From positions 1 through 42,532 of the forward strand of contig NW_014039825.1 in NCBI RefSeq assembly GCF_001186125.1: 42,532 bases of DNA, in the 5' to 3' direction. Below, one piece after another: positions 4,921-42,097 of this stretch. Source of the DNA: Sphaeroforma arctica JP610. Taxonomy: Eukaryota. Every line of letters starts with the position of its first letter. Position 1 is the first letter of the stretch. A program made the position numbers and the translations under genes. The notes beneath the pieces were generated by a model that saw nothing but the letters and a program-made list of their open reading frames with translations, did no database searches and was not told the origin of the DNA.

Positions 4921-4939
4921 GCATGATGGGGTCCAAATG

Positions 4940-10221: not shown

Positions 10222-10536
10222 TTGTGTTTTGAGCCGATCTAAGATTACAGTTTTGGTTTTTATATATTAAAAGGATACCGTCTGACAATCGGCAGTCTGA
10301 CAGTGAGTTCGACTTTGAACACCTGTTTTATCCACAGATTGTTGGAATGATTCGCCCCTCATTTACATATTCTATAAAAATTTAACTATGTGTACATTTG
10401 TATTGTATGCAACACGGCAGCCGCAGGTGTCAGGTGAATATCGCCCCCTACGCCGGACATCACAATATTAAAGTATGAACACTACGGAGAAATCTGACAT
10501 ACAAATGAGACGAATTTATAAATAATAATAAAAATC

Positions 10537-10608
10537 TGACCGGTGAAAGGATCGAACTTCCGGCCGTAAGGTTTGGAATCTTACGCTCTACCGCTGAGCT
10601 AACCAGCC
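10537..10608 (-). tRNA. trnW: tRNA-Trp (anticodon CCA)
   Basis: GGCTGGT-TA-GCTCAGCGGTAGAGC-G-TAAGA-TTCCAAA-CCTTA-CGGCC-GGAAG-TTCGATC-CTTTC-ACCGGTC-A folds as a cloverleaf; no encoded CCA tail; followed by a T5 Pol III terminator. Confidence 0.93.
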
Positions 10609-11920
10609 ATATAAATAGGGACCAGTAACGATACCAATCACAAGTAGCTGGGTGTCAAGGTGAGAACTGGTCGACAGTATTTATTCATAACTGGCCGTGT
10701 ATTTTTTTTTGTGGCAAATCAAAACGATGACAAATGTCATGTGGATTGAGGAATGAAGTGTGTGAATGACTGAATGTGTGATAGACTGATATTGTAGCCT
10801 CCAGGTATTTTGGAAAAGTTACAGCCAGTGCTAAGGCCTAGGTCGACAATTAACCAGAATAAATCATGTATTTCCATTGGTCAAGACGTCTTAAATATTT
10901 TTTTCTGAAACCGACATTTCATTTTCTCAACTGACGATATCGAAGATTCAAACTCTTTTCTAGTGGCTTTTAGTTAAAATTAATCCAATGAAATCAAATT
11001 TTGTATCACACATTTTGTAAATGAAGTTTCACAACGTTATATAAGTTCGCTGTTAGTCGAGCCAATCAGAAGATGCCAACGATACGCACCCCTGCACTCA
11101 AAGTCCAGACCGGTCCACGAAATCAATGGCTCAAGGTACGTTCTTAAGACCATAGAGACATTTTTGTACGCACACGAAATGATACACACAGAATAGGACA
11201 AACATTGCTATCGGTGGTGGACAACGAGATAGCGTTGGTAGCGAATTATAAACCGTCTGTTGCAGTTTTAAATAGTTGACACTATCGTTGTTTACCACCG
11301 GTTGCGACCGTTTACCGTAGACTTTATTGATTTATTTTGATAAATATGTAGAATTACTTCCTGATTATATCCAGTTCTGTAAGTAAGTAACTGTACTGTG
11401 TAAGATAAGTTAGCGTAAGATAGTCGGCAGTATGCCAAGTAGTGGTAGTATGTCAAGTAGTGATGATGAAGTGTTCTGCAAAGAAACTTCATTGCAAAGT
11501 CCACCCAGTGCAGGCAGTACACAACACAGTGTACGCCGTACGTCCCCACCGCATGCATCGCATGCATCGCATGCATCACGTCAAATTCCAAGACAGATCA
11601 ATCAACTTTCAGCTTCGGGCCTTCAGGCAATAGCCATAGCGCAACCTAGGAAAGTATATGGAGAAATTAGTAAGTGTAAATCCAAAGCTGCGCGATTAGC
11701 TTTAAAACAAACGCACAGTAGATCACAGAGATTAGTAACAAACCCATGACATTCAAACGATGAACGCACTAACAGAGTTAACGAAGCACGCGCTCATGAA
11801 GTAAACGATGCACGCGATAATAACCTCGTACGGAAAACACTATTCAACGATCAGGAAGGTGCAAAACATCGTTGCACCAATTCATTGCAAAGGAGATTGC
11901 GGTACAAAATTAAACACACG

Positions 11921-12442
11921 TACTGCTGCCAACACAGATACTACCGCGCATACTGCGACCAACACAGACACTACTGCACGTGCTGCAACCAACACAGACA
12001 CTACTGCACGTGCTACGACCAGCACAGGCACTACTGCACATACTGCGACTAGCACAGACACTACTGCACGTGCTGCGACCAACACAGACACTACTGCATG
12101 AGCTGCAACCAGCACAGACACTACTGCACATGCTGCGACCAACACAGACACTACTGCACGTGCTGCGACCAACACAGACACTACTGTACATACTGCGACC
12201 AACACAGACACTAATGTATGTGGTGCAACCAGCACAGACACCACTGCACGTTCTGCGACCAACACAGACACTACTGTATGTGGTGCAACCAGCACAGACA
12301 CTACTGCACGTACTGCGTCCAACAAAGACACTACTGTACATACTGCAACTGACACAAACACTACTGCACGTGCTGCGACCAGCACAGACACTACTGCACG
12401 TGCTGCGACCAGCACAGACACTACTGCACGTGCTGCGACCAG
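11921..12442 (+). repeat. 30-bp minisatellite, ~17 copies
   Basis: Unit CTACTGCACGTGCTGCGACCAACACAGACA; one inverted copy also at ~13828-13857. Confidence 0.97.
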
Positions 12443-13639
12443 TGTACGTACTAGCATAGACAGTAATGCGAGAACTGGGGTAAAAACAAGTGTGGTTTTC
12501 CAACGCCCTTGTTATGGGAGCACGTTCCAGCACGGTCTGGTCTATACTATTTTATCACGCATCGCTCTATATTAGAAGATCCGTTGACGGCAAGCGCCTT
12601 GAATAATGAAGGCTGTGCGTTCTGCCTGTTAGGGAGAGATTTGAACTCGCACTTTTGCAGCATTTGCAATAGAGCCGTTCACGCTTTCTGTCAAGATGTT
12701 GGTGATGCAGAGGGCGCAGGCAGTATTGGTTCGTGCTACTACTGCAAACCAGGTCCTATGGACAGTATCGCTCACGCGAACCGCATGAAGTTTGCAGGGT
12801 TAACTTACAGTAGGGAACAACAAACTAACTACAGCGGCTAAGGACGAGGCATGATATTATAATATTGAGCCCATACTCGGGTTCGGCCGTCAGAGTTGGA
12901 GCGCAAGAGGTATTCTCTCCACCCCACTCTCGCAGGATGGACAGCGGGCAGATGCCAGAGTTTAATATTGGTGACTGTGGCGAGTCGGACCAGGAAGAAG
13001 GACAAGATCCCAATGCGGAGTGGAATGCCTTATGGGCTAGAATGCCCCGTGTTGATCCACCAGAGCGATCCCTACACGTGCAGGTAAAGTTTAATAGAGG
13101 AAACAACACAAGATCATTCAGTAACAGAGGCAAGGAGGGATCCCCTGATGTATGCTTAATGTCATTGGTAGATATGTTTGATGTGGCTAATTTAGAGCGT
13201 CAAATTCTATTGTTGGCTAACCATACTATTAACGAGTGGCGAGCACAACCAACATCAAAGAAGAACGCAGTGGGCGGAACGAAGGGGGGATTGAAGGTGA
13301 ATGGGTCGCATGAATTTACTCTTCCATTCACGGGGGCCCCAGATATGCACAAGCGCGCTGTGATCAGCTGCAAGGAGTTTGGCGAACAGCGACAAGACGA
13401 CCATAACCCGCTATGGGTAGTGGATTCAGCTGGAAACGACGACCTTTCAATCAAGGTAAGAAATATGGTTTGTTTTATTGTGATTATATTACGGTTTTAG
13501 GGTGATTATATTAAATAGCGTTTTTAGGATTATATTGCCTGTTTTTATACAGAGCATGGACATAAACGTAAGTATAATGAGATTCAACCCCCATAGGGTA
13601 TGTAGATTAAGGTAAGTAATCTTTTTTACTCGAAGTACG

Positions 13640-15921: not shown

Positions 15922-16627
15922 TGTTATAAACGTACTCTTAAGCAGTACGTATATTTAAAAAGTACTCTTAATAGTACAAGGAACTTAAGTTTCCTAAATG
16001 GTTTTTAATGGTTTTATTAATTAATACCTTTTCCATTTTACATATCAGATATTTGGACGAGGCCATTAAAAGGCCCCAGTAAAATACCAACCATAAGCGA
16101 ACTATATTTACTTTCCAAATCTATTTATATATGAATACTTCGGTAGCGAGATGGCTCAACCGAATATAGGTTTCCAGGGACTATTAACGTTACCTAGTTT
16201 ATCCTCCGATCAGCCAACCAGATGTGCCAGTCTGATGAAGGATAAGTCGGTAATTCTTGATAAGTGGCAAGTTATTGGATAATGCAATAACTAAGGACAT
16301 CAAGAGTATTTTTCTTTTTTCTTTTATTTTTTTTTAAAGATAGGATTTTATGAGTCTCTCAGATTCGCCCCAACGAAACATACCCTAGTGTCTAATAGAG
16401 CGACAATGAAACACTAATTCAGCGAAAACAGTACTGAGAGGACTATATATAGGCAATGTCTCAGCCTCACAATCCCTCAGAGTATTGCTGTTTTCACGAG
16501 GCATACCTAACTTTACTAAAAGTCTCATTTCGTTTATTTACTTTGATATTTTCACGATACTTAGAATTTACTTACGCGTTTAATTATTCTAAGGCGTTAA
16601 TATCGCCTTGAGAGACCGAATCTTACA
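15922..16627 (+). mobile_element. 5' LTR of family B copy 1
   Basis: Begins TGTTATAA (start inferred). Ends GACCGAATCTTACA, an end shared by the copies at 19789, 20014, 34844(-) and 35331. TATA-like motif at ~16444. Confidence 0.75.
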
Positions 16628-16753
16628 CATTTTAAAGTTAGCAAAGGTATTAATTACTTAAACTACTTAAACGTAAAGGTAGAAAACTACCACAAATTTT
16701 TTCTTGTCCAAGCTAGTCCTTAAGAGACAAGCTAGCAGTCATAAGTTAAGATT

Positions 16754-17608
16754 GTGACCAAGCAAGACAATACTCCTTGTAAGAAGCGTAGAGCTGAAAA
16801 GAAGAGGATGGAGAGAGACGCCGCTGCTGCTGCCGCATTTAACGCGACCGCAGAAGAGGACAATCAATCCGTAACCGAAATCATTGCTGCTGGTATTTAT
16901 AACCAGGACAATACAATAGATAAGGATGAAGACTTTCCATTAAGAGAGAAGTCCCCTGAAGAAAGAGCCCGCGGGCCAACTATTGCGTCTGCTTCGAAGC
17001 TTACGTTTACGAAGCCAAGAAGCCACGCAAAAGGATCGGTTAAGACGATCCCTACCAAACCTGATGAGGACAATCAGAAGGATCTAACTCCAATTACGGA
17101 GAAAGGAGACAACCCGCTCGAGGGAGAGGATGAGAAGGAAAACTTAGAGAGCCGACCCGAATCAGAATCAAACCAGCCATCGCACATAAGTAAGTTGATC
17201 GATGAGAACACTAAACTTAAGAATCATTTAGCCGCTCTTAAAAAGCGAATGACCTCGCAGGAGAAGGTGGTTGTTAAGAAACCGCGGGAGCAGACCGATC
17301 AAGGGTATGTATCCAGGCAGACCTCAAACGAGAGACCCCAACATACACGTCCACGTGAATCTACCCAATTTATACGCCCTGTTAAGAAGGTGCGTGCGGA
17401 GCACAAGGAACCTGCATACAAGCAAGTTAAGAACTGTGCTGATGAGAAATGTGGTTATGACATGTACCAGTTAACCTCTATCGGTTACTGGAACGGAAAG
17501 CGTGCCCAATATTGTAGACACTATCTTACAAAATGCGATAAATGTGAGAAGACCAATGGCTACCACACTAAATCGTGTAACGTCAGACCCGACATTAAAT
17601 TGGACTGA
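16754..17608 (+). CDS. Gag of family B copy 1, with an in-frame internal deletion
   Basis: Homologous to both ends of the 32561-34711 gag but lacks its middle; C-terminal knuckle CDKC-x6-H-x3-C; GTG where copy 3 has ATG. Confidence 0.8.
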   Translation: MTKQDNTPCKKRRAEKKRMERDAAAAAAFNATAEEDNQSVTEIIAAGIYNQDNTIDKDEDFPLREKSPEERARGPTIASASKLTFTKPRSHAKGSVKTIPTKPDEDNQKDLTPITEKGDNPLEGEDEKENLESRPESESNQPSHISKLIDENTKLKNHLAALKKRMTSQEKVVVKKPREQTDQGYVSRQTSNERPQHTRPRESTQFIRPVKKVRAEHKEPAYKQVKNCADEKCGYDMYQLTSIGYWNGKRAQYCRHYLTKCDKCEKTNGYHTKSCNVRPDIKLD

Positions 17609-19166
17609 CGATACTACCGGGTACAATCGTTACAAAGAAAATACAACGACTCTTTAGACGAGCGTGTAATAATACCTGTATATTGCAATGAAAATAGAAT
17701 CCTTGCGTTGATTGATCCTGGTTCAGAAATTTTATTTATATCCGATCGCTTTGCATTAATGAAAGATATCGAAAGGAGAACACAAACAACTCACTTCATT
17801 TTAGCTGATGACAAAACTTTTAAGTGTGATACGATGGCCACAAATGTTAAAATCTCCCTGGCCGATGACAGGAGTATCACTACCCAAGCTGTGATAGTTA
17901 AGATGTCACAGAAGTACGACATTATAGTCGGAATGAGCGATTTACTCACTCTGGGTGTAACCGTAGCTGGTTTACCGAATAACATAGATCCATTATAGGA
18001 TCAATCATACGATAACTGTCTGAATCAATATAAGCCCCCGTCAGACACAGTCAAGGCATTCATACTTGACTTTGCGAACAAAATCATATATCTGATTCTG
18101 GTTAATAAGAAGATAAAGATCACAAATTGGGGCAAAATTCCGTTTTATCGACGGATATGTCAGCCTTGACTTAACCAAGGTGGACTTTACACAGTTGAAG
18201 TGTCCCTCAAGGAACTATGTATCCTGGAGACACGAGGCTGTGGTAAAAGAACAAGTTGAGAGACTACAGATCTCAAGCAAGTTTCAATAGCAAGAAAACT
18301 CTTTTTCTTGAATGAAATCACAAGAGTTGCGTCACTCCGAAAAGCGGATCAAATTATTAACCACATCGTGTTAATAATACTTTTGCTCCTATGAGAGCAT
18401 TGCTCCGAAAGCCGATAGCTAGGAGAGAATTGCTATGAAAGCCAAGCAACATTAATTGATCGGCGTAAGAGCGAGTAGCAGATATTATGCTATAGAACAA
18501 TATCTAAGTGTTAAAGTGTTCTGCAAAAGGTTTCTCATATTGACCATATGATTTGTCACCCTGGCCAACCCAAGCGGTTGAACACTAGCACAAACACCAT
18601 GAGTATAAAACCAAAGGTGAGGTTGTAAATAAAGATATACAATTATACTTTATTCAAAGACTACCATCTTACACTCTAACACAAGTTGAGAAATGGCTAG
18701 CAGATGGAGTGATAGAATTTATCTATCAACAGACGCCAGTTAACTTGGCATTGCTAGCTGCAGAACAACATAACTCTGACGGATCGTTTAAGAAAGTCAG
18801 AGTATGTTTAGATATGAGTCCGATAAATAAAATTTTACCGACTAATAGCTTTCGCCTACCTCGTATTAACGAGCTACTGCGAAGGATGGAAGGTGCTACA
18901 GTATTTACAACTATAGACCTTACACAAGGATACCATCAAATGCAGATATATGAACCACATCGTAAATACTTTAGTTTTACGTCGAAAGGTAAACAATACC
19001 GGTTCAGAGGTGCACCTTTCGGTTACAATCTTTACCAGCATTCTTCTAACAAGTAATGGAGGAAATGTTTGCAGACATGCCTAACGTGCAAGTCTATATA
19101 GATGACATAGTCATCTTCTCTAAAACTAAGGGCGAACACGCCGCATTAGTCAGACGAGTCCTTAAG
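17609..19166 (+). pseudogene. Pol fragment of family B copy 1 (protease and RT), interrupted by a solo LTR and truncated
   Basis: ILALIDPGSE; KYDIIVG; KKVRVCLDM; FTTIDLTQGYHQM; APFG; VQVYIDDIVIFS. Confidence 0.9.
18257..18681 (+). mobile_element. Solo LTR (family C1) inserted in the RT of B copy 1
   Basis: TG...CA, 425 bp, with 5-bp TSD CAAGT (18252-18256 and 18682-18686); removal restores EQVEKWLADG; TATAAAA followed by AATAAA. Confidence 0.88.
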
Positions 19167-20014
19167 TACCTTTTCCATTTTACATATTAGATATTTGGAC
19201 GAGACCATTGAAAGGCCTCAGTAAAATACCAAACTTAAAAGTTGGTCTAGTTCTATTAATAGAACTATATTTACTTTCCAACTTTATTTATATCTGAATA
19301 CTTCGGTAGCGAGATAGCTCATCCAAATATAGGTTTCTAGTGACTATTAACGTTACCTAGTTGATCCTCCGATCAGCCAACCAGATGTGCCAGTCTGATG
19401 AAGGCTAAGTCGGTAATTCTTGATAGTGGCAAGTTATTGGTTAAGACAATAACTAAGGACATCAAGAGTATTTTTTCTTCTTCTTCTAAAGATATGATTT
19501 TATGAGTCTCTCGAGTTCGCCCCAGTGAAACATACCATAGTTTCTAATAGAGCGACAACGAAACACTAAATAAAATCCCTTCGGCGGAAACAGTACTGAG
19601 AGGATTATATATAGGCAATTTCTCAGCCTCACAATCCCTCAGAGTATTGCTGTTTTCACGAGGCATACCTAACTTTACTAAATGTCTTATTTCATTTATT
19701 TACTTTGATATTTTCACGATACTTAGAATTTACCTACGCGTTTGTTTATTCTAAGGCGTTAATATCGCCTTGAGAGACTGAATCTTACACATTTTAAAGT
19801 TAGCAAAGGTATTAATTACTTAGACTACTTAAACGTAAAGGTAGATTAACTATCACAATTTTTTTTCTTGTCCAAGCTAGTCCTTAAGAGACACTTCTTT
19901 GATGTGGCGTCACCGTTTAACTTGCTCTATCCATTAAAGGATAAGATTATAATTTACCTACGCGTATATCTATTCTAAAACATTAGTATCGCCTTTATTA
20001 GACCGAATCTTACA
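19167..20014 (+). mobile_element. Heavily deleted family B relic: partial LTR (to 19789), leader, ~55-bp integrase scrap and LTR 3' end
   Basis: Repeats ~16025-16728; ~19892-19946 encodes HFFDVASPFNLLYPLKDK, matching the minus-strand integrase at ~20520-20575; ends GACCGAATCTTACA at 20014. Confidence 0.8.
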
Positions 20015-20046
20015 ACCTGATACTCTGCTATCTTCTTGGTAGTGTT

Positions 20047-21312
20047 TCAACGCTTTTGCCTTTTTAATAAGGCTATATTGCGTATTTCTCGCAAGCAAGG
20101 ATATACAACGTTATAAATACGTTGTACCTTCTCTAACCATGGTAACTCATGATGATCAGGTTCGTCCTTGTTAAAGGGTATTTGTAACTCACTATATCTG
20201 CCACGAAAATAGTGAGCGGGTGTAGTTCCTGTGACCGGATCAGCACACTCATTCATTTATGTTTGTACTCACTTACGCTGGTACGGCCAATCATCTGCAT
20301 CATCCGTTAATGCAGTACGCACGAAGAACTTAAGTTTTCTATGGCGCGTTTCATTACGCGCCTTGCGTTTGCGGCTCATATGGCACACCTCTCTTATGGC
20401 ATATGCCTGATACGAGTACTAGCGATTTCATATTGTCACCGCAGTACTCACTACCGTTATCAGTGCACATATTACCGTCAGCAAAGACTTGGTAACATAC
20501 TTCTGCCACGGTCTGCGTATTCTTATCCTTTGATGGATAGAGCAAGTTAAACCGTGACGCCACATCAAAGAAGTGGCATACGTAACGGTCGCCTGTGTGC
20601 TCGGACGTGGGCAGGTCAACCAGATCAATGATGACCCTGCGCCATGGAACATCTTCAGTCACACTCTTAAGCGGTGCAAAACCATAGCGCTTGATCTGAT
20701 TGAGATCACAGTCTGAGCATGACTGGTATACTCTGTCAACTAAAGTTGCCAGCTTAGGGTGCGCGATCCCATTTCGCTTAACATCTTTAAGTGCGTCTAC
20801 TACGTTCTGATGCTTCAGCTTATGGTTTTGCGTCAGCCAAGCAAGAATGTTTTTATCATTCTGCTCCTCCAGAATAAAGGTAGGGTGTTGAGAATCCACT
20901 TGCGTGGTCTCTAAGTCTGTAGTGTTTTCAGACTCCTGTCCTGCTTTTGCATGAGCGTCATAATCGCGCTCATGTGCGTCGGATACACCTGACTTATTAA
21001 ATAGTCGCATTATATGTATATATGCTTCAGGATTGTCTTTCATTAATCTCTTTAAAAATAAGGTTTGAAAGACCTCGGGCTTGGACTTTATGTTATTAAA
21101 CAGAGTCCTAGCTAGAGATTGGCGCTTCTTAACAGTGTCAATAGTAGATTGAATTTCTTGTGCACAGACGTTAAATGCTGTGTTGCCTTTGAACTGCTTA
21201 ACGTTCAATTTGGTAGGTAGTGGAATCTCTGATTCTTTGACCTTGTTAAGGAAGGTCTCATAAGGGGTACATTTGGTTGTTCCAATGGGACCTACACGAC
21301 ATAAAATAGTTT
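20047..21312 (-). pseudogene. Linker and DDE integrase of B copy 3
   Basis: QNHKLKH...CSDC zinc motif; PWRRVIIDLVD; CTDNGSEY; PYEPQTQGA; frameshifted C-terminus. Confidence 0.9.
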
Positions 21313-21332
21313 NNNNNNNNNNNNNNNNNNNN

Positions 21333-21605
21333 AGCCATGGATCTTTACTCCGTAATGGGCAACACAACGTGATGGTAGCTTCATATATATGAACATAATT
21401 TAATAGCTGGGCAATTAACTGCCATGGTGGATTAGCCCACGCATTATGTTTGGAGAGGTCTATTTGAAAGGCGTCTCCCATAGGATGATTTAAAGTCCTG
21501 TAATTTGATAGTTGTGCATTATGATGTGCAGCAAACATATCTATGGTATGTGGCCCATATCTCTCTTAAGCCAGTTCAAACCACCTGGGATTACTTCCAG
21601 TCAGT
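21333..21605 (-). pseudogene. Dam-like (N6-adenine/amino) DNA methyltransferase domain within Pol of family B
   Basis: TDWK..NPRWF...YGPHTIDMFAAHHNAQL...GDAFQIDLSKHNAWANPPWQLIAQLL...ATITLCCPLRSKDPW; NPPW at 21422-21433; C-terminus runs into the N gap at 21313-21332. Confidence 0.85.
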
Positions 21606-22044
21606 GGCTAGTAACTCACGTACGGATTTATTAAAGTCCGGTACGAAGCGTGATAACATATCCGGTAAATGGTTATGTATACCTGGCAAATGTTTTATAT
21701 CAAAATGAACCTTTGATATTGTATCATGCCAGCGACTCAGTAATTGCGAGTCGGGTTTCATCTCTTTCATATATTGAAGATATTTCTGATCACACATCAG
21801 CGGAAATGCTGTTCCGTATAAGTAATCTTGGAAGTATGTCAGAGCTGCCACTATGGCTAATAGCTCTTGTTTAACAGTTGGATAATTCAACCGTGAAGCA
21901 TTCATTGCTCGACTAAAGAATTGTATATATCTAGGTTTGTTATCTATAACCTGATATAATACTCCTCCTAAGGCTAAGTCTGATGCGTTCGTTGCTATTT
22001 CAAACGGCACGCCATCGACTGGCCCTTGTTCAACTGGGGTTTGT
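21591..22044 (-). pseudogene. RNase H of B copy 3
   Basis: FEIATNASDLALGGVLYQ; NYPTVKQELLAIV; HLPGIHNHLPDMLSR. Confidence 0.92.
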
Positions 22045-22295
22045 TGTGGTCAGAATACTATAGTACGTAGTTTATTTGATTATTTTAGGTCTAATATAAA
22101 TTTTACAGTTTATCAGAATAATCATATAAACTGGGTTTTAGGGTTTTGCTGTTCTTACAGCACATAACTGATGACTCATTTTGAGAGTCATTAATCTTAG
22201 GATTACTGTTTACAATTATTATTATATGAACAAACGTCCCCCTCCCTGAGGAGGGAGAACGTTGAGATATAGTTACTCGACGTGTACTTACTACA
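22045..22295 (+). repeat. 5' LTR of element D
   Basis: 251 bp; about 8 substitutions and 1 indel relative to the 3' LTR by manual comparison. Confidence 0.96.
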
Positions 22296-25208
22296 TTTTT
22301 AACTATACTTTGGAAAGTTGTTAGTTTATTAATAATTGTAAAATAAGCTATTTTATTTAAGCTACTTGATAGTATTAAATTGAAATGTATTAGTTTTTAT
22401 ACGAACAAAGAACTTTGAATGTAACAGCAGAAGCAAGATGGAGCAGCAAGATGACGAGATCGCTAGAATCTACCGACGGAGGAGGTCGATAGAGGCTCTA
22501 CTAGCAGTGACGCTAGTGCCAGGATACCGTCCTTGCTGTCAAATAGTGACAGCGGCCCGGTAGAAACACAGAAACACAGATATAACAGAACCAGTCAAGA
22601 GGATCTGAAGGAATCAATCGACGCTTTAGGCTAAGTAGAACTAGTATGGCTAGGCAGTTAGAAAGGTTCAGGCTTTCTCAGCAAGTAGATATTATTCCTA
22701 GAAAGCAGCAAACATTATCAAACAAAGACACTACAACTGAACACGAGGAGCTATCGAAAGAATCGGAGGGATCGAAATCAGCAGAACAGGAGCGAAATCA
22801 GAAGGTCCGGAGGGATTAAGACGGCAAAGACAAGGGCTCAGACAACGAACAAGATAAGTAACAACAATAACTAAGAGTAGTTCTAGTAGTGGTCGAAACT
22901 ATACGGTTAGAGATACAAGTAGTAGGGCAGTAGTTAAACCAGAACCCTACTATAGACACGTACAGACTAGAAGAACAAGCTTGGTTAGTTAAGACAATTG
23001 TTGGAGGTAAAATTTCGTTCGAAACAGGTAAATAGAGTCAGAAAAAGTAGATTTTAGAATGTTGAACAGATAAATATTTAAGAGAAGATATAAGATAGTA
23101 GTGCCTACGTTAGGTAGGGCTAAAAGTGATAACATTACAAACATTATAGACCCACGCCAGATCTAGACAAAAGCAAACTATAGCAATGATATCCTTTGTA
23201 GAAAACATGGGGGTAGGAATAAGGATAAACATACCACCTGCACATAGAGGCTTAGAACGAGTAGATTTACAGTAAGCGAGTGGTTTCAGACGAGCTAACA
23301 TTCTATTCCAGTCGTTGCAAGAAACTATAGCTCAACACACTCACAGAGAAGTGGTCTACCGAGAGAAGGGCCATGGACGAGAACCAAGAACAATACTAAG
23401 AAACATCTGCCTTAGGAGACTTCGGGCAACGGGACGTACGAGGGCAATATTAAGTAGAGTCTAGTTGCATAAGAGAGGGATCGGCAGAGCCAGGAAGGCC
23501 TATATGGAGCCATCATGGGTTGCTTACCACAATGGCACATGTTGGAACACGGAAGAATAAATCAGCGACATACGGGGAGCAACACAAGAGCTGAAAAGCC
23601 TTCTCAGGAGCAAAAGGAGTTCACTGAAGAGAGATGTGACTCCACCAGAAGAATGGAGAAGCACACAAGGGGGTAGGGTGAACCCCGACGGGTACTAAAA
23701 CATAAATACATATAACATATGCATTGGCTAAAGACAGGCGCAGGATTCATGGGTGAGTTGATACTGCGGCAAGGGACGAAATAAATTGTCTAAGTAAGAA
23801 TGTCGAGATTTGTTGAGAAGGGCGTCGAACCTCTAGGACGGGGAAGTATTTATACCCGAACTATTTTGAGGATGACTGCATACATTCCAAACCTCCATTA
23901 CATTACATTACATACCTATTATGTCCAACACACGTCAAAGCCGCCGACAGCAACGCCTAACCCCTGAACGTCGAGAGGATGATGATATAGACCAGAGAGA
24001 GACCAAGCGCTACCAACCTTCAACGAATCATCCCCACCATCGATCTGAGACAGGGCGGAGGGATACTCAGGATGACGAGATCCATAACCAGGAAGCAAAC
24101 TTTGATCGACAGATACCTACGGCAACTAGGGGCGAACCTAGCCTTACAACGGAAGACGTAGCACAGAACGACGAGGCCAAGGGATATTCCGACCTGCGCG
24201 CGGACAGGGAACAGTCCATTATTAGTGAACAGGTAGCCAGTAACGTACTGCCTCCTCGTTCGTCTTCGGGTATCTCAGGCGCCTCATCCTCTGTTAATGG
24301 GCAACCACGCCTCCCACCTAACAAGCGGAGACGTTATCGACGTCGCCCCAGCAACAAGGGTACAACGCGGGAGCAGCTGTCAACACAAAAGCTCACCGAG
24401 CTCATGGCTCAACAACAATCGCTGTTGGAGAAGTATGAACAAAGATTGCAACGTACGGCTTCGGAGCGCCCTACGACATTGTTGTCTCCGCACGCCCCAT
24501 CTACTAGTTCACACAGACAAGGGCAGACAACACGAAGCAGGGAGAACAACCCTACGTTCCGAATACTAGGTCGTTCACAACCACATTATGGCCTTGGATA
24601 CGAGTCACCAGAGTCGGAAGGACAACCCTCTGAGGAGGAAGAGACACTGTCATCCAGGGAGGCAGCGCCATCATTCCAGGAGTTGGTACGCGAGCAAGTG
24701 TTGGCCAAACGGAACCCACACGGGCAGGAGGCACTCAAGACTAAACAAGACCAGATGAGTTCGACATATCGCCAACACCAACAACGTCAGCTGTTCGAGA
24801 AGGAATCCGCTAGTGAGTATGTACAGAACCTCGACGTACGGAGACCACATTATGCACACCAACGGCGAGTGGGCAAGAACAATCTTCGAAGCCAGCGGAG
24901 ACAACGATGCCCACACCTCCTTCTACAACGGCGAGTATTGAAAAGAGCCGCCAGGTGTTACACGACGTATACTACACTTGAGCGACGAACTATGCCAAGC
25001 TATAGAGGATGACAACACGGCTCGGGCTGAAGCCCTTAGGGGTGCGATTGAGACACTCCGAGCCACGCTAGAGGCCCGACCGGTGGAGAAACGTCCATTA
25101 CCATCACCACGGACATGGCCGGACTGGCTTTCGAACAGATATCACCTCCATGATATCATGGAACGTGATACGAGAGGGGCTCTACTGGAGGCTTTTAAGA
25201 ATGCGCAG

Positions 25209-25636
25209 ATCGCAGGGTTAGACGAAAGTTCGAACCTCACATGGTGTCACAAGGTGTTATCTTACTTTAAAGCGGAAAAGTCCACATTGGACTACATACG
25301 CGACAACTCTGAACAATTGAAGATGTGGACCCCAGTAGGAGGCGTATTTTTATATGCGTTAATAACGTTGTACGTCGTCAGCCCGAGAGTAATTTGGGAC
25401 TTGTTCTCAAATTAATATAAGTATCGCAGGGTTAAACGAAAGTTGGAGCCTCACATGGTGCCACAAGGTGTTATCTTACTTTAAAGCGGAAAAGTCCACA
25501 TTGGACTACATACGCGACAACTCTGAACAATTGGATATGTGGACCCCAGTAGGAGGCGTATTTTTATATACGTTAATAACGTTGTACGTCGTCAGCCCGA
25601 GAGTAATTTGGGACTTGTTCTCAAATTAATATAAGT
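25209..25636 (+). repeat. 214-bp tandem duplication spanning the gag/solo-LTR junction
   Basis: 25209-25422 is repeated at 25423-25636 with few changes. Confidence 0.93.
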
Positions 25637-25978
25637 ATAGGTGGGTCAGCCTGAGAGAACGTAAGAGTAATTTGAGACTTCTTCTCAGATTATTCTATTT
25701 ATAGGATACGGGCCACCGGCTAGCCGAGAGCCGAGGTCCGAGACTGAGTGTGGTAACAGAGAATATGATATATTTATTTCTAAAAAATATATCCGAGTGC
25801 TAAAGTGTTCTGCATAAGGTTTCTCATACTGATCATATGAGTTTTTACCCTGGCCAACCCAAGTGGTTGAACACTAGTACAAACACCATCAGTATATAAC
25901 TGAGGGTGACATCATAAATAAATTCATTCGAATGCACCATACTTTAGATACACTAGCACTTTACTATTAGTCCCCACA
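25538..25978 (+). mobile_element. Solo LTR (family C2) inserted in the gag of D
   Basis: TGTGGAC...GTCCCCACA termini, 441 bp; shares a ~105-bp core with 18507-18611; TATATAA followed by AATAAA; no TSD visible. Confidence 0.75.
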
Positions 25979-26837
25979 CCGCACGCTCGAGACGCAAGCC
26001 ACTGTGGATCCCGCATTTCGCAAGCTTGCCAAGGGTCACAGTCGTAATATGCACATTCCTATTATGGAACAGATGACACAGCTGATGGAGAACCATAGGA
26101 GGGCACGTGAACGGTGCCAGACGGATACAGATTTTCAGCAGAACCTACTAAACCATTGCATAGTTCAACTGTTAGAGGAGGCTCTCAACTGCCGTACGTA
26201 CGAACGCACTTTACAGTTGCATCCCAAATGGCAGTTGATGAAGACGCATGAGCTTATCCAGTTGTTAAGTCCCGACATCCAGGACACGCAGCAACGCACT
26301 ACGGCACGTACACAAAACCGTAACAATCGCGACGGATCACAGAGGAATGGGGCTCGTGATTATACCAATAGCCGCCCCAACCCGCAGACGACGCGACAGC
26401 AGGCACAAAACTGGGCACAGCGACCACAACCGACAGCACCTACTACATGCGCTGGATGTCAGGCACAAGCTCCACCAGGGGCGCGTCATATTCCACGCTG
26501 TCATCATTTCCGGGTAGTTCCACCAGGAGGTGCGGAGGGCAGGACATGTTCGTATGACAACAACCGGGCATCACGAGACACACAACCAGCCTATAGACCA
26601 CCCGCAACCCGAGCCTCAGGGCAGGGTAAGGTTACTAACCCGAGCAGAGAATTGGCTACCTCTCGCCCGACACCTCAAGTACAGGTGAACGCGATTACGT
26701 CCAAGGACAGTTTCGTACCACCGTCGGCAGCGACAGAGGTACATATCAATACGATACTCACGGAAGACTTCGACCCTACAGCGATGGAAACAGACCAGGA
26801 CCAAGGTGATTGGGAGTCGGTGAACGACCAAGCATGA

Positions 26838-28740
26838 GAGGTGAGGGTGTCTGATTCGGATAGGAGCTTCACATTTGTTAACACTATTAGGGACGTAATG
26901 GCGATACAGGACCCATTGCTGTCGTCTGATAGCCGTGTTTGTATCCAAGTGCAAGTGAACGGACGGATGTTCAAGGCACTAATCGACACGGGAGCAAACA
27001 GAAGCTGTATCTCACAGACATCCGCAGACCTCCTCGGCCGCCCGACAACTCCAGCACCACCTGGGTCATTCATATATTTAGCTGACAAGGCGGTTCGAAC
27101 TCCTCGACTGGGGACGACGGAAGTGGTTCCTATTCGGTATGGGTCCAAGATCATTGACGGGTCACTAGAACTAATGAATTTACCAACGGGGATAGACGTT
27201 ATAGTGGGACAAGACATGTTGAAGGGTTTGGGCCTATACATAAGAGGTATTCAATCTCCACTCGCGCCTATCAACCATACAGAACTCGACGAGCTCCTCG
27301 AACCAATCCCTCGTCGACAGGCGCCGAACACAGCGGAACCTGCCGATGCACGACAACGACTCACGCGGGACTTAGAAACGAACGCAAATATTGCTGACAA
27401 CGCACGTTGTCGCCTGGAAGGGAGTGAGGTTACTATTCCGGTAACCCGCGAACAGGCGATGCATATGCGCAAATCAACGGGTAACTTCGTATCCGACCGG
27501 AGGCTACCATACGTAGACGAGCAAGTACAGAAGTGGTTGTCGGACCTGGTAATAACGAAGCGGACGACACCAACGACGGTTAACCTTTCGCTCCTCACGG
27601 TCCCGATGTTTGATGCAGAGGGGAATGTGAAGAAGGTACGCGTGTGCTTATATATGCGGGCGGTCAACGCCCTGATCCCAGGCGACCAGTTCTTAATTCC
27701 CAAGGTCAACGAACTGATCTCTCGCCTCAAGAGTAATAAGTACTACACCACGCTGGACATATCGGCTGCTTATCATAGGCTACCGATCCATCCTGACTCA
27801 CAATATCTCTTTAGTTTCACTCACGAGCGTTACCAGTACTCGTTTACCTCAGCGCCGTTTGGACTACACGTACTCACACAACAGTTCCAGCGAACCTTGA
27901 GCACGATACTGGATGGCTTACCGGTCCATCACTATATCGACGACATCGTGATCGTGACTATGACGAACATATCGAGACGGTGTGGAAAATGATTCAACGC
28001 TTAACATACCACAGTTTCAAGCTCAACCCTGCCAAATGCCACTTTGCCATTTCGGAAGTGATGATCCTAGGAAAGAAGGTGTCGGCTAAGGGCATAGACA
28101 TCGATCATGGGAAACAGCGAAGCTTATTGACTGGCCTACCCCACTACGGTACAAAGATATAGCTTCTGCCTTAGGGTTGGCGAATTATCTCCATGAGCAT
28201 CTCCCTAACTTTGCGAAAATGGTTGCACCGTTGCGCGAATTTTGCAAGCTCAAACCGAAAGAGTTGATCGGCGACCGATGGGAGGAAAGGCACGCACTAG
28301 CGTGGCAAGCCATGAAGGATGCTGTGGTTAATGCGGTCGTTTTGCACTTTCCGGTCGACGGTATACCCTTGAACTTGGAAACCGACGCGAGCGACTACGG
28401 TTTGGGGGGAGCGCTATTCCAATGGGTCGACGGGAAGAAACACTATTTAATGTTATTTAGCAAAACTCTGAACCACGCCCAACAAAACTATGCCACATCA
28501 ATGAAGGAGTTACTCGCCCTAGTATATGGTCTCACACATTTTTAGGGAGTATTTGGATGGACAACGGTTTGCAGTTTTCACCGACCACAAGGCCCTGGTA
28601 TATATGAACACACAGCTTAAGCTTAACCCGATGCTTCAGAGATGGTACCACATCATCGCGCAGTTCAACTTCACCATATCACACATACCAGGAGAGACGA
28701 ATGTGCTACCGGACATGTTGAGTAGAGTGCATGAGGGAAT
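26838..28740 (+). pseudogene. Protease, RT and RNase H of element D
   Basis: KALIDTGANRS; YTTLDISAAYH; APFGL; HYIDD; LETDASDYGLGG; KELLAL; FTDHKAL; NVLPDMLSR. Confidence 0.95.
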
Positions 28741-28769
28741 AGCGGAGCAGGACGAATCTGAAATACTGT

Positions 28770-29180
28770 ATCCGGATTGTTGGCAGTTATTCCCTAGTTA
28801 CTTTTAACAAGCGCAACAACACTTCGGTCCGAACGACGTAGATGTATTTGCAGATCCACCCAACGCTCAGCTCCCTAGATTCTGGACTAAGGACGAGGGA
28901 GAAGGCGCGTTTGCTCAAGACTGGTCGACAGTTGACGGATGGATGAACCCACCTTGGAAACAGATATATAGGATGTTACGCAAGATACGAGCAGACGGCG
29001 CACGGGCAACGGTATGTTTGCCATGGATACCAAGAGCACCATGGTTTGACCTGTTCAAGCAGTTATTGCAAACAGATCCACTATTGGTCCCACGAACACC
29101 CCATACATTCCTCAAGCATGCCAAGTACGCCTGCGGGAAGACACCTTGGGGACATACGGTAGTAGCACGGGTGAATCGGG
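28770..29180 (+). pseudogene. Dam-like (N6-adenine/amino) DNA methyltransferase domain within Pol of element D
   Basis: DCWQLFPSYF*QAQQHFGPNDVDVFADPPNAQLPRFWT...AFAQDWSTVDGWMNPPWKQIYRMLRKIRADGARATVCLPWIPRAPWF; same frame as the RNase H end apart from one TAA at 28805; NPPW at 28946-28957. Confidence 0.88.
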
Positions 29181-30620
29181 GTTCAAGTTGGACCCCCTGT
29201 TTTCACAGCGACTTGGGTATGCAGAACCAAAGCACATAGAGTATATCATGTGCTTAGATACAGCGCGCGAAATCTCAGTGGCAATTGCGGACGCCGAAAG
29301 TCAACCAGCGTTTGAACGGGCGACTCCGGCAGAGCAACAGCGACGCACACGGCTTACACAAGCGCAACATGAACAGGGACATCATGGGGCAGCGGACACA
29401 GTCCAACAACTCCGTCAGGACGGTCATGTATGGCCTGGGGCACTAGAATTAGCCACAGAGGTAAAGCAGCAGTGTGCCACGTGTTTGGGCCAGGTTACGC
29501 TTCGTAAAGGCTTCCATCCGATGATTAGTATTGACGCACGCTATCCATGGGACCACATCCAAGTGGATTACAACCCAATGCCACTGGAGTCCAGACGCAA
29601 GAACAATTATATACTTCACGTCTTGGACATCGCCACTGGCTACTCCGTCCTCCGAGCCACACCGGAGAAGACGAAGGAGACCACGGCACAGACACTCGTA
29701 GAGATTTTTGGCGAGCATGGTTTTCCACGGCTGATCCATACGGACATGGGGAATGAATTCACCAATAAAATAGTGGAGCGTTTGGTGCAAGAAGTGGGGA
29801 TGTTACATAAGGTGTCGCCACCACATCGACCCCAAGTGTTGGGCGCAGCGGAATGCCGTCATAAGGAAATTACATGTTCCATTAGACAATGCTGCGAGGC
29901 GGTTCCTCTACGTTGGGACGAACGCCTTCCGTTTACGATGCTGTACCAGAACTTCGGATATCCCGCCGCCATAAGAGTGCACCGTTCAGCGTATACTTTT
30001 GCCGCCGTCACGTCCCATTTGCCGATTTCACTGACGAGTTGCCTAACTCCCAGCCAATAACGAATGACACCTGGGCACAACGGTCAGACCAGTTGCTGGA
30101 TACCATCCTGCCGACTCTCCACCACATTACCAAGAAGTATACAGGCAAACTAACGAAGACATTTGATCGCCTGCATGCTCATGACTTGGTACACTTCGAT
30201 GAAGGGGACGTGGTTATGGTACGTTCAGAAGGCCGCACAACTAAGGCCATGCGGCCATTGTTTGGGCCATATGTTGTAAAGGCCAGACACGGGCAACGCT
30301 ATGAGTTAGCGAACAAAGATGGTTCCGTTCCGCCAGAATTCAAGGACAAACCGGTACGGGTGGAACTCCTTCGGTTGGTGCATAGACGCACAGACCCTCC
30401 ACTTAACGATAAATTGTGGACTGAAGGAGGTGTTGAGTTTCGCCACATTATTACATACCGTACAAATGATGAGACAGGGAAATTGGAATACCTGGTGAGA
30501 TGGCGGGAAGGCGAACCAACGTGGGAAACAGCGGAAGCATTTGATGATGCCAACGATATCGTGGCCTACCATAAAGCTTCGCAAACACGGACACGTAAGC
30601 ACCAACGCGCCCAAATCTAA
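29181..30620 (+). pseudogene. Integrase (HHCC, DDE, GPY/F) with C-terminal chromodomain, element D
   Basis: HEQGHHG...CATC; IQVDY; HTDMGNEF; GAAE; LFGPYVV; chromodomain EFRHIITYR...LEYLVRWREGEPTWETAEAF; one frameshift at ~29955. Confidence 0.93.
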
Positions 30621-30685
30621 TGTTAATTATCTGACGACCATTTGGTCGAACGTTACGTTCGAACCGTGATTTTCGAGCCCTCCAG

Positions 30686-30778
30686 CTCTCAGAGGTTAAA
30701 TGCCAGCGCACTGCTCTAGCTCTCAGAGGATAACTGCCAGCACACTGCTCTAGCTCTCGGAGGATAACTGCCAGCACA
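30686..30778 (+). repeat. 34-bp tandem repeat (~2.7 copies) in the 3' UTR of D
   Basis: Unit CTCTCAGAGGATAACTGCCAGCACACTGCTCTAG. Confidence 0.88.
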
Positions 30779-30852
30779 TAAGGTACTTTATAATTTCTTA
30801 TCATCTCTGAAACTGGCACACTGCTTCGGCCAGTGTTTCAGTTTGGGGGGGT

Positions 30853-31102
30853 TGTGGTCAGAATACTATATTACGTAGTTTATTTGATTATTTTAGGTCT
30901 ATTATAAATTTTACAGTTTATAAGAATAATCTGATAAACTGGGTTTTAGGGTTTTGCTGTTTTTACAGCACATGACTGATGACTCATTTTGAGAGTCATT
31001 AATCTTAGGATTACTGTTTACAATTATTATTAAATGAACAACGTCCCCCTCCCTGAGGAGGGAGAACGTTGAGATATAGTTACTCGACGTGTACTTACTA
31101 CA
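30853..31102 (+). repeat. 3' LTR of element D
   Basis: 250 bp, preceded by the polypurine tract GGGGGGG (30845-30851). Confidence 0.96.
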
Positions 31103-32560
31103 TTGTTGGACTGCATGTTTGAGCGCTTTAAACGCGTCATCATACTCTTTAGTCCACAAGTCTCCTAGTTTGCCTTTATGACATCTTAAGTGTCCAAAAG
31201 GTTTAAGGTAGTCGGCTAAGTGTGGTACTCCATCTGAAAAGAAGTTTATAAACCCACACATGCTGTTAACATCTCTTCCTGTAGTTGGTGTTCGCCAATC
31301 TAACAGGTGTTCTACCTTACCGGGGTCGATTTTAATACCTTCCCCAGATATATGGCAGCCTAAGAGCTGTATTTCGCTCATTGCGAAGTGGCATTTCTTC
31401 TCGTTAATTTTGAAGTTTTTTTCATTGAGTCTCTTAAGGACTCGTCTGACTAATGCGACATGTTCGCCTGTAGTCTTAGAAAATATGACTATGTCATCTA
31501 TATAGACTTGCACGTTAGGCATGTCTGCAAACATTTCTTCCATTACCTGTTGGAAGAATGCTGGTAAAGAGTGTAACCCGAAAGGTGCACCTCTGAACCA
31601 GTATTGTTTGCCTTTCCACGTAAAGCTAGAGTATTTACGGTGGGGTTCATATATCTGCATTTGATGGTATCCTTGTGTAAGGTCTATAGTTCTAAACACT
31701 GTGGCACCTTCCATCCTTCGCAGTAGCTCGTTAATACGAGGTAAGTGAAAGCTGTGAGTCGGCAATACTATATTTATTGGACTCATATCTAAACATACTC
31801 TGACTTTCTTAAACGATCCGTCAGAGTTATGTTGGTCTACGGCTAGCAGTGCCAAGTTAACTGGCGTTTGTTGATAGTTATTTTCTATCACACCATCGGC
31901 TAGCCATTTCTTAACTTGTTCATTTACAACAGCCTCTTGTCTCCAGGATACATAGTTCCTTGAGGGACACTTTAACTGTGTAAAGTCTACTTTGGTTAAG
32001 TCAAGGCTGACATATCCGTCGTTAAAGCGGAATTTTGCCCAATCTGTGATCTTTATTTTCTTATTAACAAGAATCAGATCCATGATTTTGTCCGCAAAGT
32101 CAGGTATTAATGCCTTGACTGTGTCTGACGGGGGCTTATATGTATTCAGACAGTTATCGTTTAATTGATCCTTTAGTGGATCTATGTTAGTTGGTAGACC
32201 AGTTACGGTTATGCCTAGAGTGAGTAAATCACAAATTCCGACTATAATGTCGTACTTCTGTGACATCTTAACTATCACAGCTTAAGTAGTGATACTCCTG
32301 TCATCGGCCAGGGAGATTTTAACATTTGTGGCCATGGTATCACACTTAGCAGTTTTATCATCAGCTAAAATGAGGTGAGTTGTTTGTGTTCTCCTTTCGA
32401 TATTTTTCATTAATGCAAAGCGATCGGATATACATGAAATTTCTGAACCAGGATCAATCAACGCAAGGATTTTATTTCCATTGCAATATACAGGAATGAT
32501 TACACGCTCATCTAAAGAGTCGTTGTATCGTCTGTGTAACGATTGTACCTGGTAGTACCG
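31103..32560 (-). pseudogene. Protease and RT of B copy 3
   Basis: ILALIDPGSEIS; KKVRVCLDM; IDLTQGYHQM; APFGL; VYIDD; KCHFAMSEIQLLG. Confidence 0.95.
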
Positions 32561-34711
32561 TCACTCCAACTTAATGTTGGGTTTTCGGTCACAAGACTTG
32601 GTGTGATAGCCATTGGTCTTCTCACACTTGTCACACTTAGTAAGAAAGTGTGTACAGGTGGATGCATGTCTACCATTCCAATAACCGTTAGGGGTTAACT
32701 GGTACATGTCATATCCATTTTGGGCGTCGGCACATTTCTTAATCTCCTTAAATGGAGGTTCCATGTCCTTCGCTCCTGCTCGTGCCCGTTTATTGGGTCG
32801 CGTGGATAAAGTGGATTCGCGAGCACGTGTTTGTTGGGGTCTCTCGTTTGAGGTCTGCCTGGATACGAACCCGTGATCGGTGAGCTCCCGTGGCTTCTAA
32901 ACAGCCGCTTTCCCCTTCGATGTTACTCGATGTGCAGGAAGAAGAGTGGATACAGTATCATAAAACTGTTCCCATGTAAGTCGGGATAGATGAAACTTTG
33001 TTTCATGTCTCTTGTCTCGAGCCTCAGTTGCGTGTTTACGTCGCAACTCGGTGTACAGACTCTCACGGTCGTCATTCCCTATGTTCTTACCGAACACGTG
33101 CATAACCAGGAATTTGTACCATCGCTGCGCCTTGTTCTTTTTTATATCTGGACGTTTCAGGTCAGCATCTAGCTTCAGAATATAACTCTGAATGGGCGTG
33201 TTCTCAGCTGGTTCATTTAAAATTGAACTCAGCCCAGGGCTACGCATATCCTTACTTAACAAGGATGTGACCAACCAACAAACTGCTGGCCAGTAGCGAC
33301 AAGCGTCTAGCTCATGCTGGTGTCGCTTCAGGATCAGATAACTGGTACCTGTAGGGTCAAATGTCTGCATTGAGGCAGAGATCCATTGCTGGGGAGCGAT
33401 ATCATTCGTCTACAGCATGACCGTAAACGCATTAAGTGTACGAGTTAGCGTGTCGAGGTCATGGTTGTTTATAAACTCGACCTGCTTGCTGTTGGCATCC
33501 CAGTTCGACTTAAGTCGACTGATCTGTCCCTTGTACTTCTGGTTGTCCTTGTGGTCTTGTCCACGTTGGGCCTGAAGTAATTGGTCTATGTGCTTTTGCT
33601 TAATCGCAATAATATTTGCATAGTATGCTACGTCACCAGCATGATGCGCAGCATGGGTGACTTCCATTTTATTGGTATAGTCGTCGACCGATTTATTAAG
33701 GTCAGTCACCTCGTCAAAGTGGAAATCCTCTGCGGGTTGGTGTAAAGCTGTGCGGTCGAAGCGATTAAACTCGACATCGTTCACACGTCCACGGGGATGA
33801 TTAATATCCTTTGGTGTCGGAATAACATACCCAGTCTTAACTGGTTTCCGACGACTATCCTCCCAATTCGGTACAAGTGGCGGAGTATATCTCCTTATCT
33901 CTCGGTCTACAATACCTTTGAGGACAGGAGACTCACGGCCGGGTGTCAGAACAGGCGAATGATTAGCCTGTTCTTCTGGCAGTAATGCCTCGTACGGTAT
34001 ATCGACGCTGTGCACCTCTGGATCATATGACTCATGTGTCGAGCTTGAGTCTTTGGGCGTAATTGCCTGTCGACGTTCTGTCCACTTCTGTAGTGCTTCA
34101 GTAATGCACGGGGAAACATGCTCGCGTAAGCGCTGTGTATGTTTTCCTGATCTATCTAGTTGATCTACATGTTCGACAGTCAAGTCTTTCATAATAGTAG
34201 TTAACTGATTCTTAAGATCAGCGTATTTAGTAATTAACTTACTTATGTGCTTCGGCTTAGAAATCTCGGACGTAGATTCGGGTTTGCTACTTGAGGTTGC
34301 CTCCTCTTCTGGTTCCATAATAGGTTCCTTCTGAGATTTGTCCTTGTCCCCTATAATTGGGGACGCCCTCATAATTGGGGTCTTTCCTTTCTGATTTTCG
34401 TCAGAAGAATGGGTTTGGGCGTCTTGAGACGTATCCCTTGTCTCACTTTTTGGCTTCGTTAATGCAAACTTTGAAGTTGAGGCAATAGTTGGCCCTCGGG
34501 CTCTATCAATGGGAGTAGTCTCCTTAAGCGGAGCGGCTACATCCTTATCTGAAGCATTGTCCTTTTGACTATTATTGTCAGAGGCAAGTACTTCGGCTAC
34601 AGTGCGGTTAAACGCATCAGCAGTAGCTGCGGCAGCGCTAACGACTTCTCTCTCCATCTTCTTCCTTTCAGCTCTACGCTTCTTAGAAGGAGGGTTGTCT
34701 TTCTTGGTCAT
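32561..34711 (-). pseudogene. Gag of B copy 3
   Basis: ORFs 33410-34711, 32897-33370 and 32561-32764; knuckle CDKC-x6-H-x3-C. Confidence 0.85.
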
Positions 34712-34843
34712 AAAATTAACTTATGACTACTAGCTTGTCTCTTAACGACTAGCTTAGACAAGAGAAAATAAAAGTTGTGTTAGTTAACTTACCTTTACGC
34801 TTAAGTTGTCTAAGTAATTAATACTTTTGCTAACTTTAAAATG

Positions 34844-35331: not shown

Positions 35332-35335
35332 CTTA

Positions 35336-41354: not shown

Positions 41355-41399
41355 CCACCGCCAACTTCAGAGAACACCAACTTAGTCCAGCTGCTGCCA

Positions 41400-41841: not shown

Positions 41842-42097
41842 TTTTTCTGCAGTTCGTGTTTATAAGCACGTGCCACAACGTCAAGACCTGCTCTATGTAT
41901 CTGTTAATATCACTACAGATTCCAACCCGCGGATTATTAACTAAGTGGCTATATATTTATGAACCACCGATGAAGCAGCACACTGATATGAACAACCAAT
42001 CATTCGCAAGCGATTCAAGTAGCCAGAGACGTGTGTACTCTCCGCATGGCTTATATATTGCCACCGGTTTAGCCTTTGCCTGCGTTCACAACTTTTA

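What the first reader, a model, noticed from the sequence alone, without database searches (positions are those of the whole stretch)
21313..21605. A second, divergent family carries the same NPPW methyltransferase at the same Pol position
Family B has unrelated LTRs and gag and a clearly diverged Pol. It still carries YGPHTIDMFAAHHNAQL...DAF...WANPPW...ATITLCCP...PW between RNase H and integrase. Motif residues are kept while the intervening residues differ from D. This argues for an ancestral, selected domain rather than a one-off capture.
Basis: partly seen in the sequence, partly recalled or inferred. Interest (0 to 1): 0.85.

Follow-up and report, generated by a model that had tools for sequence, protein, structure and literature searches.

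The report
Retrotransposon lineage keeping an adenine methyltransferase
Two distantly related jumping-gene families in a single-celled relative of animals carry the same adenine-methyltransferase-like domain inside their replication protein, likely inherited from a common ancestor and kept by selection, but this lineage of elements was already described in a 2026 preprint.

Summary
Confirmed, but already known. Family B (minus strand) has a Dam-like (PF05869) NPPW domain between RNase H and integrase, as family D does. These are the only two such domains in the window (106 and 149 bits; next best -0.4). The nearest named relatives are from Sphaeroforma arctica and Abeoforma.

The ancestry and selection reading holds. 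B and D share one RT clade in which 14 of 15 rows carry the domain, and one Dam clade. Across 10 intact Pols the domain is as conserved as RT (0.42 vs 0.45; flanking linker 0.14). B-D synonymous sites are saturated, so dN/dS could not be computed.

bioRxiv 10.64898/2026.05.21.726589 describes this ichthyosporean DAM-LTR lineage. The scan has met DAM-LTRs in other genomes.

Small additions: D is nested inside B; D and 7 of 12 relatives carry a divergent chromodomain, which the preprint says the lineage lacks; and the nearest solved fold is the RNA cap methyltransferase PCIF1, so the substrate is open. This B copy is broken.

The parts
21333..21605 (-). Family B Dam-like N6-adenine methyltransferase domain, part before the gap; NPPW at 21422-21433; frameshift near 21593, TAA at 21566-21568
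   Evidence: Pfam PF05869 E 2.4e-5; 106 bits with an independent profile; 78% identical over 77 aa to intact Pol P0003; coordinates
21313..21332 (.). Run of 20 N inside the B domain, probably an assembly gap; relatives have about 29 more residues here than it can hold
21290..21310 (-). Last strand of the B methyltransferase domain, after the gap
   Evidence: aligns to P0003
21714..22007 (-). Family B RNase H
   Evidence: Pfam RT_RNaseH E 2.1e-26
20014..20845 (-). Family B integrase (zinc finger and core), broken near 20360 and cut off near 20014; no C-terminal tail or 3' LTR
   Evidence: Pfam rve E 5.4e-5; tblastn to P0003 and P0176
31103..35332 (-). 5' half of the same B copy: LTR-like repeat (about 34736-35332), decayed gag, protease and RT
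   Evidence: RVT_1 E 1.9e-25; self-blastn; P0003 aa 1-440 map here and aa 432-588 resume beyond D
22045..22295 (+). Element D 5' LTR (TG...CA), preceded by target duplication TTGT at 22041-22044
   Evidence: 8 mismatches, 1 indel against the 3' LTR
30853..31102 (+). Element D 3' LTR, preceded by a run of 7 G (likely polypurine tract) and followed by TTGT at 31103-31106
26838..30620 (+). Element D pol: protease, RT, RNase H, Dam, integrase, chromodomain; frameshifts and stops
   Evidence: Pfam; tblastn to P0007
28775..29197 (+). Element D Dam-like domain; NPPW within 28940-28957; TAA at 28805-28807
   Evidence: PF05869 E 2.7e-8; model pLDDT 87.8; top fold PCIF1/CAPAM Z 9.1, rmsd 3.2, 121 aligned
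30435..30587 (+). Divergent chromodomain at the end of D integrase
   Evidence: Pfam Chromo E 8.5e-4, below cut-off; 55 of 55 PDB hits at E<=1 are chromodomain proteins, best E 7.7e-5; 23.0 bits vs shuffle maximum 6.0
16021..19893 (+). Second family B copy (B'): LTR-like repeat, gag, protease, part of RT, LTR-like repeat; the whole RT-end to integrase stretch is missing
   Evidence: RT 89% identical to B with pN/pS 0.22

Best explanation
B and D are Ty3/Gypsy LTR retrotransposon families of a likely ichthyosporean host whose Pol carries a Dam-like N6-adenine methyltransferase domain between RNase H and integrase, likely captured once by their common ancestor, kept by purifying selection, and predicted to methylate adenines in the element's own reverse-transcription product. 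Shown: domain order, motifs, shared clades, conservation level. Inferred from the trees (about 0.9): one capture at the base of this lineage, then vertical descent; the preprint names DIRS elements as the donor. Inferred from Gypsy biology and the preprint's model (about 0.55): as part of Pol the domain is packed into the particle and puts 6mA on the cDNA or RNA:DNA hybrid. The host maintenance enzyme AMT1 would then keep new insertions in transcription-permissive chromatin. The two window copies are broken and would make no enzyme.
For: Domain order. 12 of 25 scanned top Dam hits are Pols with RNase H-Dam-integrase in that order. An RT search blind to Dam gave 59 hits; 4 of the top 5 carry Dam, the fifth ends inside RNase H, and none of the other 54 scores. 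RT clade 99/95 with 14 of 15 rows Dam-positive. Dam clade 99/98. Dam and RT pairwise identities correlate over 45 pairs (r 0.66). Mean identity: Dam 0.42, RT 0.45, RNase H 0.40, linker 0.14. B vs P0003: Dam 78%, RT 70%, linker 29%. NPPW/F kept in 18 of 20 clade rows. Methyltransferase fold. The preprint reports more 6mA and more expression on DAM-LTRs than on other LTRs in S. arctica and A. whisleri.
Against: No activity has been shown: the preprint's E. coli assay found no rise in 6mA. Iyer et al. judged DIRS1 methyltransferases likely inactive. P0176, an intact-ORF Pol close to B, and gene model P0004 have CPPW. The nearest solved fold is an RNA cap methylase (Z 9.1), above E. coli Dam (6.8) and T4 Dam (6.7). 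Most clade rows were found through Dam, so Dam-less members are under-sampled. Deeper branching differs between the RT and Dam trees, and B-family plus D-family as one Dam clade is not rejected (AU p 0.22). The Pirum fragment P0018 fell outside the Dam clade on a long branch.
Confidence: 0.6

Rival explanations
1. Same ancestry and selection, but the substrate is RNA: the domain works like PCIF1/CAPAM and methylates an adenine at or near the cap of the element's transcript, or the RNA strand of the hybrid.
For: PCIF1 is the top match in both fold searches (Foldseek E 2e-4; Z 9.1, the only Z>=8 among 48,161 chains, followed by rRNA methylases KsgA and ErmC). Iyer et al. place DIRS1 methyltransferases in the PCIF1 clade. 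No DNA methylation was seen in E. coli.
Against: By sequence the domain matches PF05869 and a phage DNA methyltransferase family (phrog_111, E 6e-8). No close PF05869 relative turned up among solved structures, so PCIF1 may win by default at 12-15% identity. The aligned part covers only about 120 of PCIF1's 482 residues. DAM-LTR insertions carry extra DNA 6mA.
Confidence: 0.17
2. The domain is kept for binding or structure, not catalysis: it binds SAM, flipped adenines or the element RNA, or spaces the Pol domains.
For: CPPW in 2 of 20 clade rows, one an intact-ORF Pol. Negative E. coli assay. Iyer et al.'s view of the DIRS copies. The 6mA on insertions could come from host AMT1 alone.
Against: Asn of NPP is kept in 18 of 20 rows across families whose RTs average 45% identity, though the search profile favoured it.
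Confidence: 0.18
3. Independent captures or recent swapping of the domain between B and D at the same Pol site; or a neutral passenger.
For: Other LTR lineages did capture Dam separately (preprint; P0022-P0025 and P0048 lie outside the clade). Deep Dam branching is unresolved.
Against: B-D sister Dam rejected (p 0.004); tip groups agree in both trees; silent sites are saturated while the protein is kept at RT level.
Confidence: 0.05

Closest known systems
Ichthyosporean DAM-LTR lineage (Fernandez-Moreno et al., bioRxiv 10.64898/2026.05.21.726589; Pirum gemmata, Abeoforma whisleri, Sphaeroforma arctica)
   Same: Ty3/Gypsy Pol with a PF05869 Dam domain and NPP motif; B and D group with A. whisleri Pols in the RT and Dam trees, and D's Dam with an S. 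arctica protein.
   Different: The preprint text says the lineage lacks chromodomains; D and 7 of 12 relatives, including A. whisleri P0006, have a divergent one. Its text has no test of purifying selection and does not mention PCIF1 (whole text read). Its figures and supplements were not seen.
DIRS1-type tyrosine-recombinase retrotransposon methyltransferase domain
   Same: Same domain family, placed right after RNase H; DIRS-like proteins fill much of the Dam hit list.
   Different: Here it is followed by a DDE integrase, with direct LTRs and a target duplication; the RT groups with Gypsy, not DIRS.
Chlorophyte DAM-chromovirus-like elements (same preprint)
   Same: Dam plus C-terminal chromodomain in a Gypsy Pol.
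   Different: Dam-plus-chromodomain Pols with a strong Pfam Chromo hit (P0023, P0024, P0025; hosts unnamed) lie outside the B/D clades. D's chromodomain is below the Pfam cut-off.
PCIF1/CAPAM cap-specific adenosine N6-methyltransferase
   Same: Nearest solved fold; same clade according to Iyer et al. (PMC4738411).
   Different: 12-17% identity; only the catalytic core aligns; a cellular RNA enzyme, not a mobile-element domain.

Membership tests
Ty3/Gypsy LTR retrotransposon | Pol order protease-RT-RNase H-integrase | tested here: met
   Pfam and tblastn for B and D
Ty3/Gypsy LTR retrotransposon | Direct LTRs with TG...CA ends and a target-site duplication | tested here: met
   Met for D. B has only its 5' repeat and its ends were not resolved.
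Ty3/Gypsy LTR retrotransposon | RT groups with Gypsy, not DIRS | tested here: met
   (DIRS-like rows split off at SH-aLRT 100)
DAM-LTR, ichthyosporean lineage | PF05869 Dam domain inside a non-DIRS LTR Pol | tested here: met
   D above the Pfam cut-off; B below it as a half domain but 106 bits on an independent profile
DAM-LTR, ichthyosporean lineage | Dam and RT group with Abeoforma and Sphaeroforma elements | tested here: met
   the one Pirum fragment fell outside on a long branch
DAM-LTR, ichthyosporean lineage | No chromodomain (the preprint's description, not its clade criterion) | tested here: not met
   D and A. whisleri P0006 carry a divergent chromodomain, which points to a gap in the description. 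B's tail is missing, and its two closest relatives gave no hit.
DAM-LTR, ichthyosporean lineage | Raised 6mA and expression of insertions | not testable with these tools
   no methylation or read data for this window
Active N6-adenine methyltransferase | Rossmann methyltransferase fold and (N/D/S)PP(Y/F/W) motif | tested here: met
Active N6-adenine methyltransferase | Methyl transfer to DNA adenine | not testable with these tools
   the preprint's E. coli assay was negative
DIRS retrotransposon | Tyrosine recombinase in place of a DDE integrase | tested here: not met
   rve integrase follows Dam in B and D
EpiLTR | Cytosine DNA methyltransferase in addition to Dam | tested here: not met
   no C5 methyltransferase Pfam hit in the D pol ORFs scanned or in the clade Pols scanned

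The most novel reading that the evidence does not exclude
The ichthyosporean DAM-LTRs are a chromodomain-bearing lineage whose 'Dam' is really a PCIF1-like RNA or RNA:DNA-hybrid adenine methyltransferase that marks the element's own transcript. That would explain the failed E. coli DNA assay and would make it a retroelement-encoded RNA-methylating enzyme.
Probability: 0.15. Interest if true: 0.7.

Novelty: already known. Interest (0 to 1): 0.27.

Why it matters
If active, the domain would let a retrotransposon write the host's 'active gene' adenine mark on its own new copies, a counter-silencing route in the closest single-celled relatives of animals. The concept and this lineage are already in a 2026 preprint. 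What this window adds is modest: protein-level evidence of long-term selection, an overlooked chromodomain, and a structural reason to test RNA and hybrid substrates. Intact relatives with NPPW (P0003) and CPPW (P0176) make a natural pair for such a test.

Tried and rejected
No whole genome is held, so copies of B could not be counted; no read or expression data were obtained. A word-based search with the D domain against longer proteins found nothing. A single-sequence fold was poor (pLDDT 42) and was not used. A PDB sequence search with the B+D alignment gave only two chance kinase hits. The metagenome scan kept 80 of 234 loci; in 80 of 80 the best Dam match was a DIRS-like reference, so none served for dN/dS. 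B-D dS is saturated (pS 0.92), so only dN (0.61) is given; local alignment biases pN down, equally for all domains. ApT and GATC counts in the elements are near expectation and uninformative. The profile-profile chromodomain match (98%) is circular, since segments were chosen with the same profile, and is not counted. B' lacking the domain is no refutation, because it lacks everything from late RT to integrase. S. arctica model P0001 joins RT to integrase, but as a gene model it is uninformative. Rows left out: 8 near-duplicates dropped from the RT set (99 to 91); 30 of those 91 used; 49 rows in the Dam tree and 26 of those.

Full report
Observation. B scores 24.5 bits (cut-off 28.1) on the half domain before the gap, and D scores 34.1. 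A profile built without window sequences gives 106 bits for B and 149 for D, against -0.4 for the next best six-frame hit. B and D are different families. Their LTRs share no blastn match, D's gag-region ORFs have no significant match in B, and their Pol domains are 30-48% identical.

Anatomy. D (22045-31102, plus strand) has 250-bp TG...CA LTRs that differ at 8 positions and one indel, a G run before the 3' LTR, and a TTGT duplication on both sides. It sits inside B: intact Pol P0003 maps with aa 1-440 to the right of D and resumes at aa 432 to the left. So 31103-35332 and 20014-22044 are one B copy. That copy has a frameshift and a stop at the start of the methyltransferase, a broken integrase and no 3' end. 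D's pol also has stops and frameshifts. A second B copy (16021-19893) lacks everything from late RT to integrase. Both methyltransferase genes here are therefore relics, and selection must be read from their history.

Host. Named hits are from Sphaeroforma arctica (73% identity over 147 aa in the RT region), Abeoforma whisleri and Pirum gemmata. An ichthyosporean host, probably Sphaeroforma, is inferred.

Ancestry. A profile search with the B and D domains gave 3,947 hits at E<=0.001, of which 150 were listed. Of 25 scanned, 12 are Pols with RNase H-Dam-integrase in order. An RT search blind to Dam gave 59 hits. Four of the top five carry Dam, the fifth ends inside RNase H, and none of the other 54 scores, though some of those are fragments. 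In a careful RT tree of 30 rows, chosen from 91, B and D fall in a 15-row clade (99/95) with Abeoforma Pols; 14 of 15 carry Dam. In a Dam tree of 49 rows they fall in a 21-row clade (99/98) with the same tip groups. B and D as sister Dam domains are rejected (AU p 0.004), while the two families as one clade are not (p 0.22). Against this: deeper branches differ between the trees, the Pirum fragment fell outside, and most rows were found through Dam. Other Dam-bearing Pols lie outside the clade among Dam-less ones, so 'ancestral' applies to this lineage only.

Selection. Between B and D, silent sites in the domain are saturated (pS 0.92; 5 of 15 fourfold sites identical), yet amino-acid identity is 37%, like RT's 39%. 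B and P0003 are 78% identical over 77 Dam residues, 70% in RT, 67% in RNase H and 29% in the linker after Dam. Over 45 pairs of 10 intact Pols the means are Dam 0.42, RT 0.45, RNase H 0.40, integrase core 0.37 and linker 0.14. NPPW/F is kept in 18 of 20 clade rows; two have CPPW. A formal dN/dS was not possible: no genome is held, and 0 of 80 metagenome loci belonged to the clade.

Fold and mechanism. With a 26-row alignment the D domain folds confidently (pLDDT 87.8). Both searches rank the RNA cap methyltransferase PCIF1/CAPAM first (E 2e-4; Z 9.1, rmsd 3.2, 121 aligned, against 6.8 for E. coli Dam). Iyer et al. (PMC4738411, passages) put DIRS1 methyltransferases in the PCIF1 clade and thought them inactive. 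By sequence the domain matches a phage DNA methyltransferase family. I commit to methylation of the element's own cDNA or hybrid inside the particle, then upkeep by host AMT1. That is the preprint's model and rests on its report of raised 6mA and expression. It is inferred, and the preprint's E. coli assay was negative. RNA-substrate and binding-only roles remain open.

Chromodomain. D's integrase ends in a chromodomain: Pfam E 8.5e-4, and 55 of 55 PDB hits at E<=1 are chromodomain proteins. With a profile from four Pfam-verified element chromodomains, 8 of 13 clade C-termini, D and Abeoforma P0006 among them, beat the best of 520 shuffles. Five did not, including B's two closest relatives. 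By eye D keeps the central cage Trp but lacks the first and third aromatic residues, like group II element chromodomains (PMC3350952, passages); the position mapping is my own reading.

What is known. bioRxiv 10.64898/2026.05.21.726589 (whole main text read; figures and supplements not seen, and they may bear on the chromodomain point) defines DAM-LTRs and an ichthyosporean lineage in S. arctica, A. whisleri and P. gemmata. It says that lineage lacks chromodomains, using an E<=1e-5 domain threshold that D's would miss. 'Purifying' and 'synonymous' do not occur in it. Paper searches listed no other report of this lineage. The scan's earlier notes list five DAM-LTR cases in other genomes, all filed under that preprint; I had found the preprint before reading them.

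Verdict. A real feature, correctly read, and already known. Interest 0.27. The open and testable part is the substrate.

Noticed in passing
window 26835-26837 (+), 17606-17608 (+), about 32561-32563 (-): An in-frame TGA separates gag and protease in D, B' and B alike, with pol continuing in the same frame; likely stop-codon readthrough. A paper search was seen as a listing only.
   Followed up: partly
window 114-793 (-): Fragment of a third family of the same clade: protease and start of RT, 53-74% identical to P0007; the Dam position lies beyond the window edge.
   Followed up: partly
window about 4300-8570 (-): A decayed, more distant retroelement with RT, RNase H and integrase-like remnants and no Dam match.
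   Followed up: partly
window 18500-18633 and 25789-25922: A 134-bp sequence (85% identical) lies inside both B' RT and D's 5' region; possibly a small non-autonomous insertion.
   Followed up: no
L004 5362-6459 (also L005, L010, L057): GC-rich Gypsy elements in which the Dam-like domain follows the integrase and a chromodomain-like stretch, a different position from B and D.
   Followed up: partly
proteins P0022 and P0029: LTR-type Pols with an exonuclease/endonuclease/phosphatase domain and Dam in front of RT.
   Followed up: no
protein P0177 aa 939-987: Weak Agenet (Tudor-like) match between Dam and integrase (E 0.004).
   Followed up: no
window 39804-41354 (+): A 516-aa frame with a signal-peptide-like start and repeats that look like a beta-helix by eye; no Pfam hit. 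Probably a host gene.
   Followed up: no
window 10536-10609 (-); 11828-12531; 25209-25636; 41308-41907: tRNA-Trp; tandem arrays with periods 30, 214 and 75 bp.
   Followed up: no
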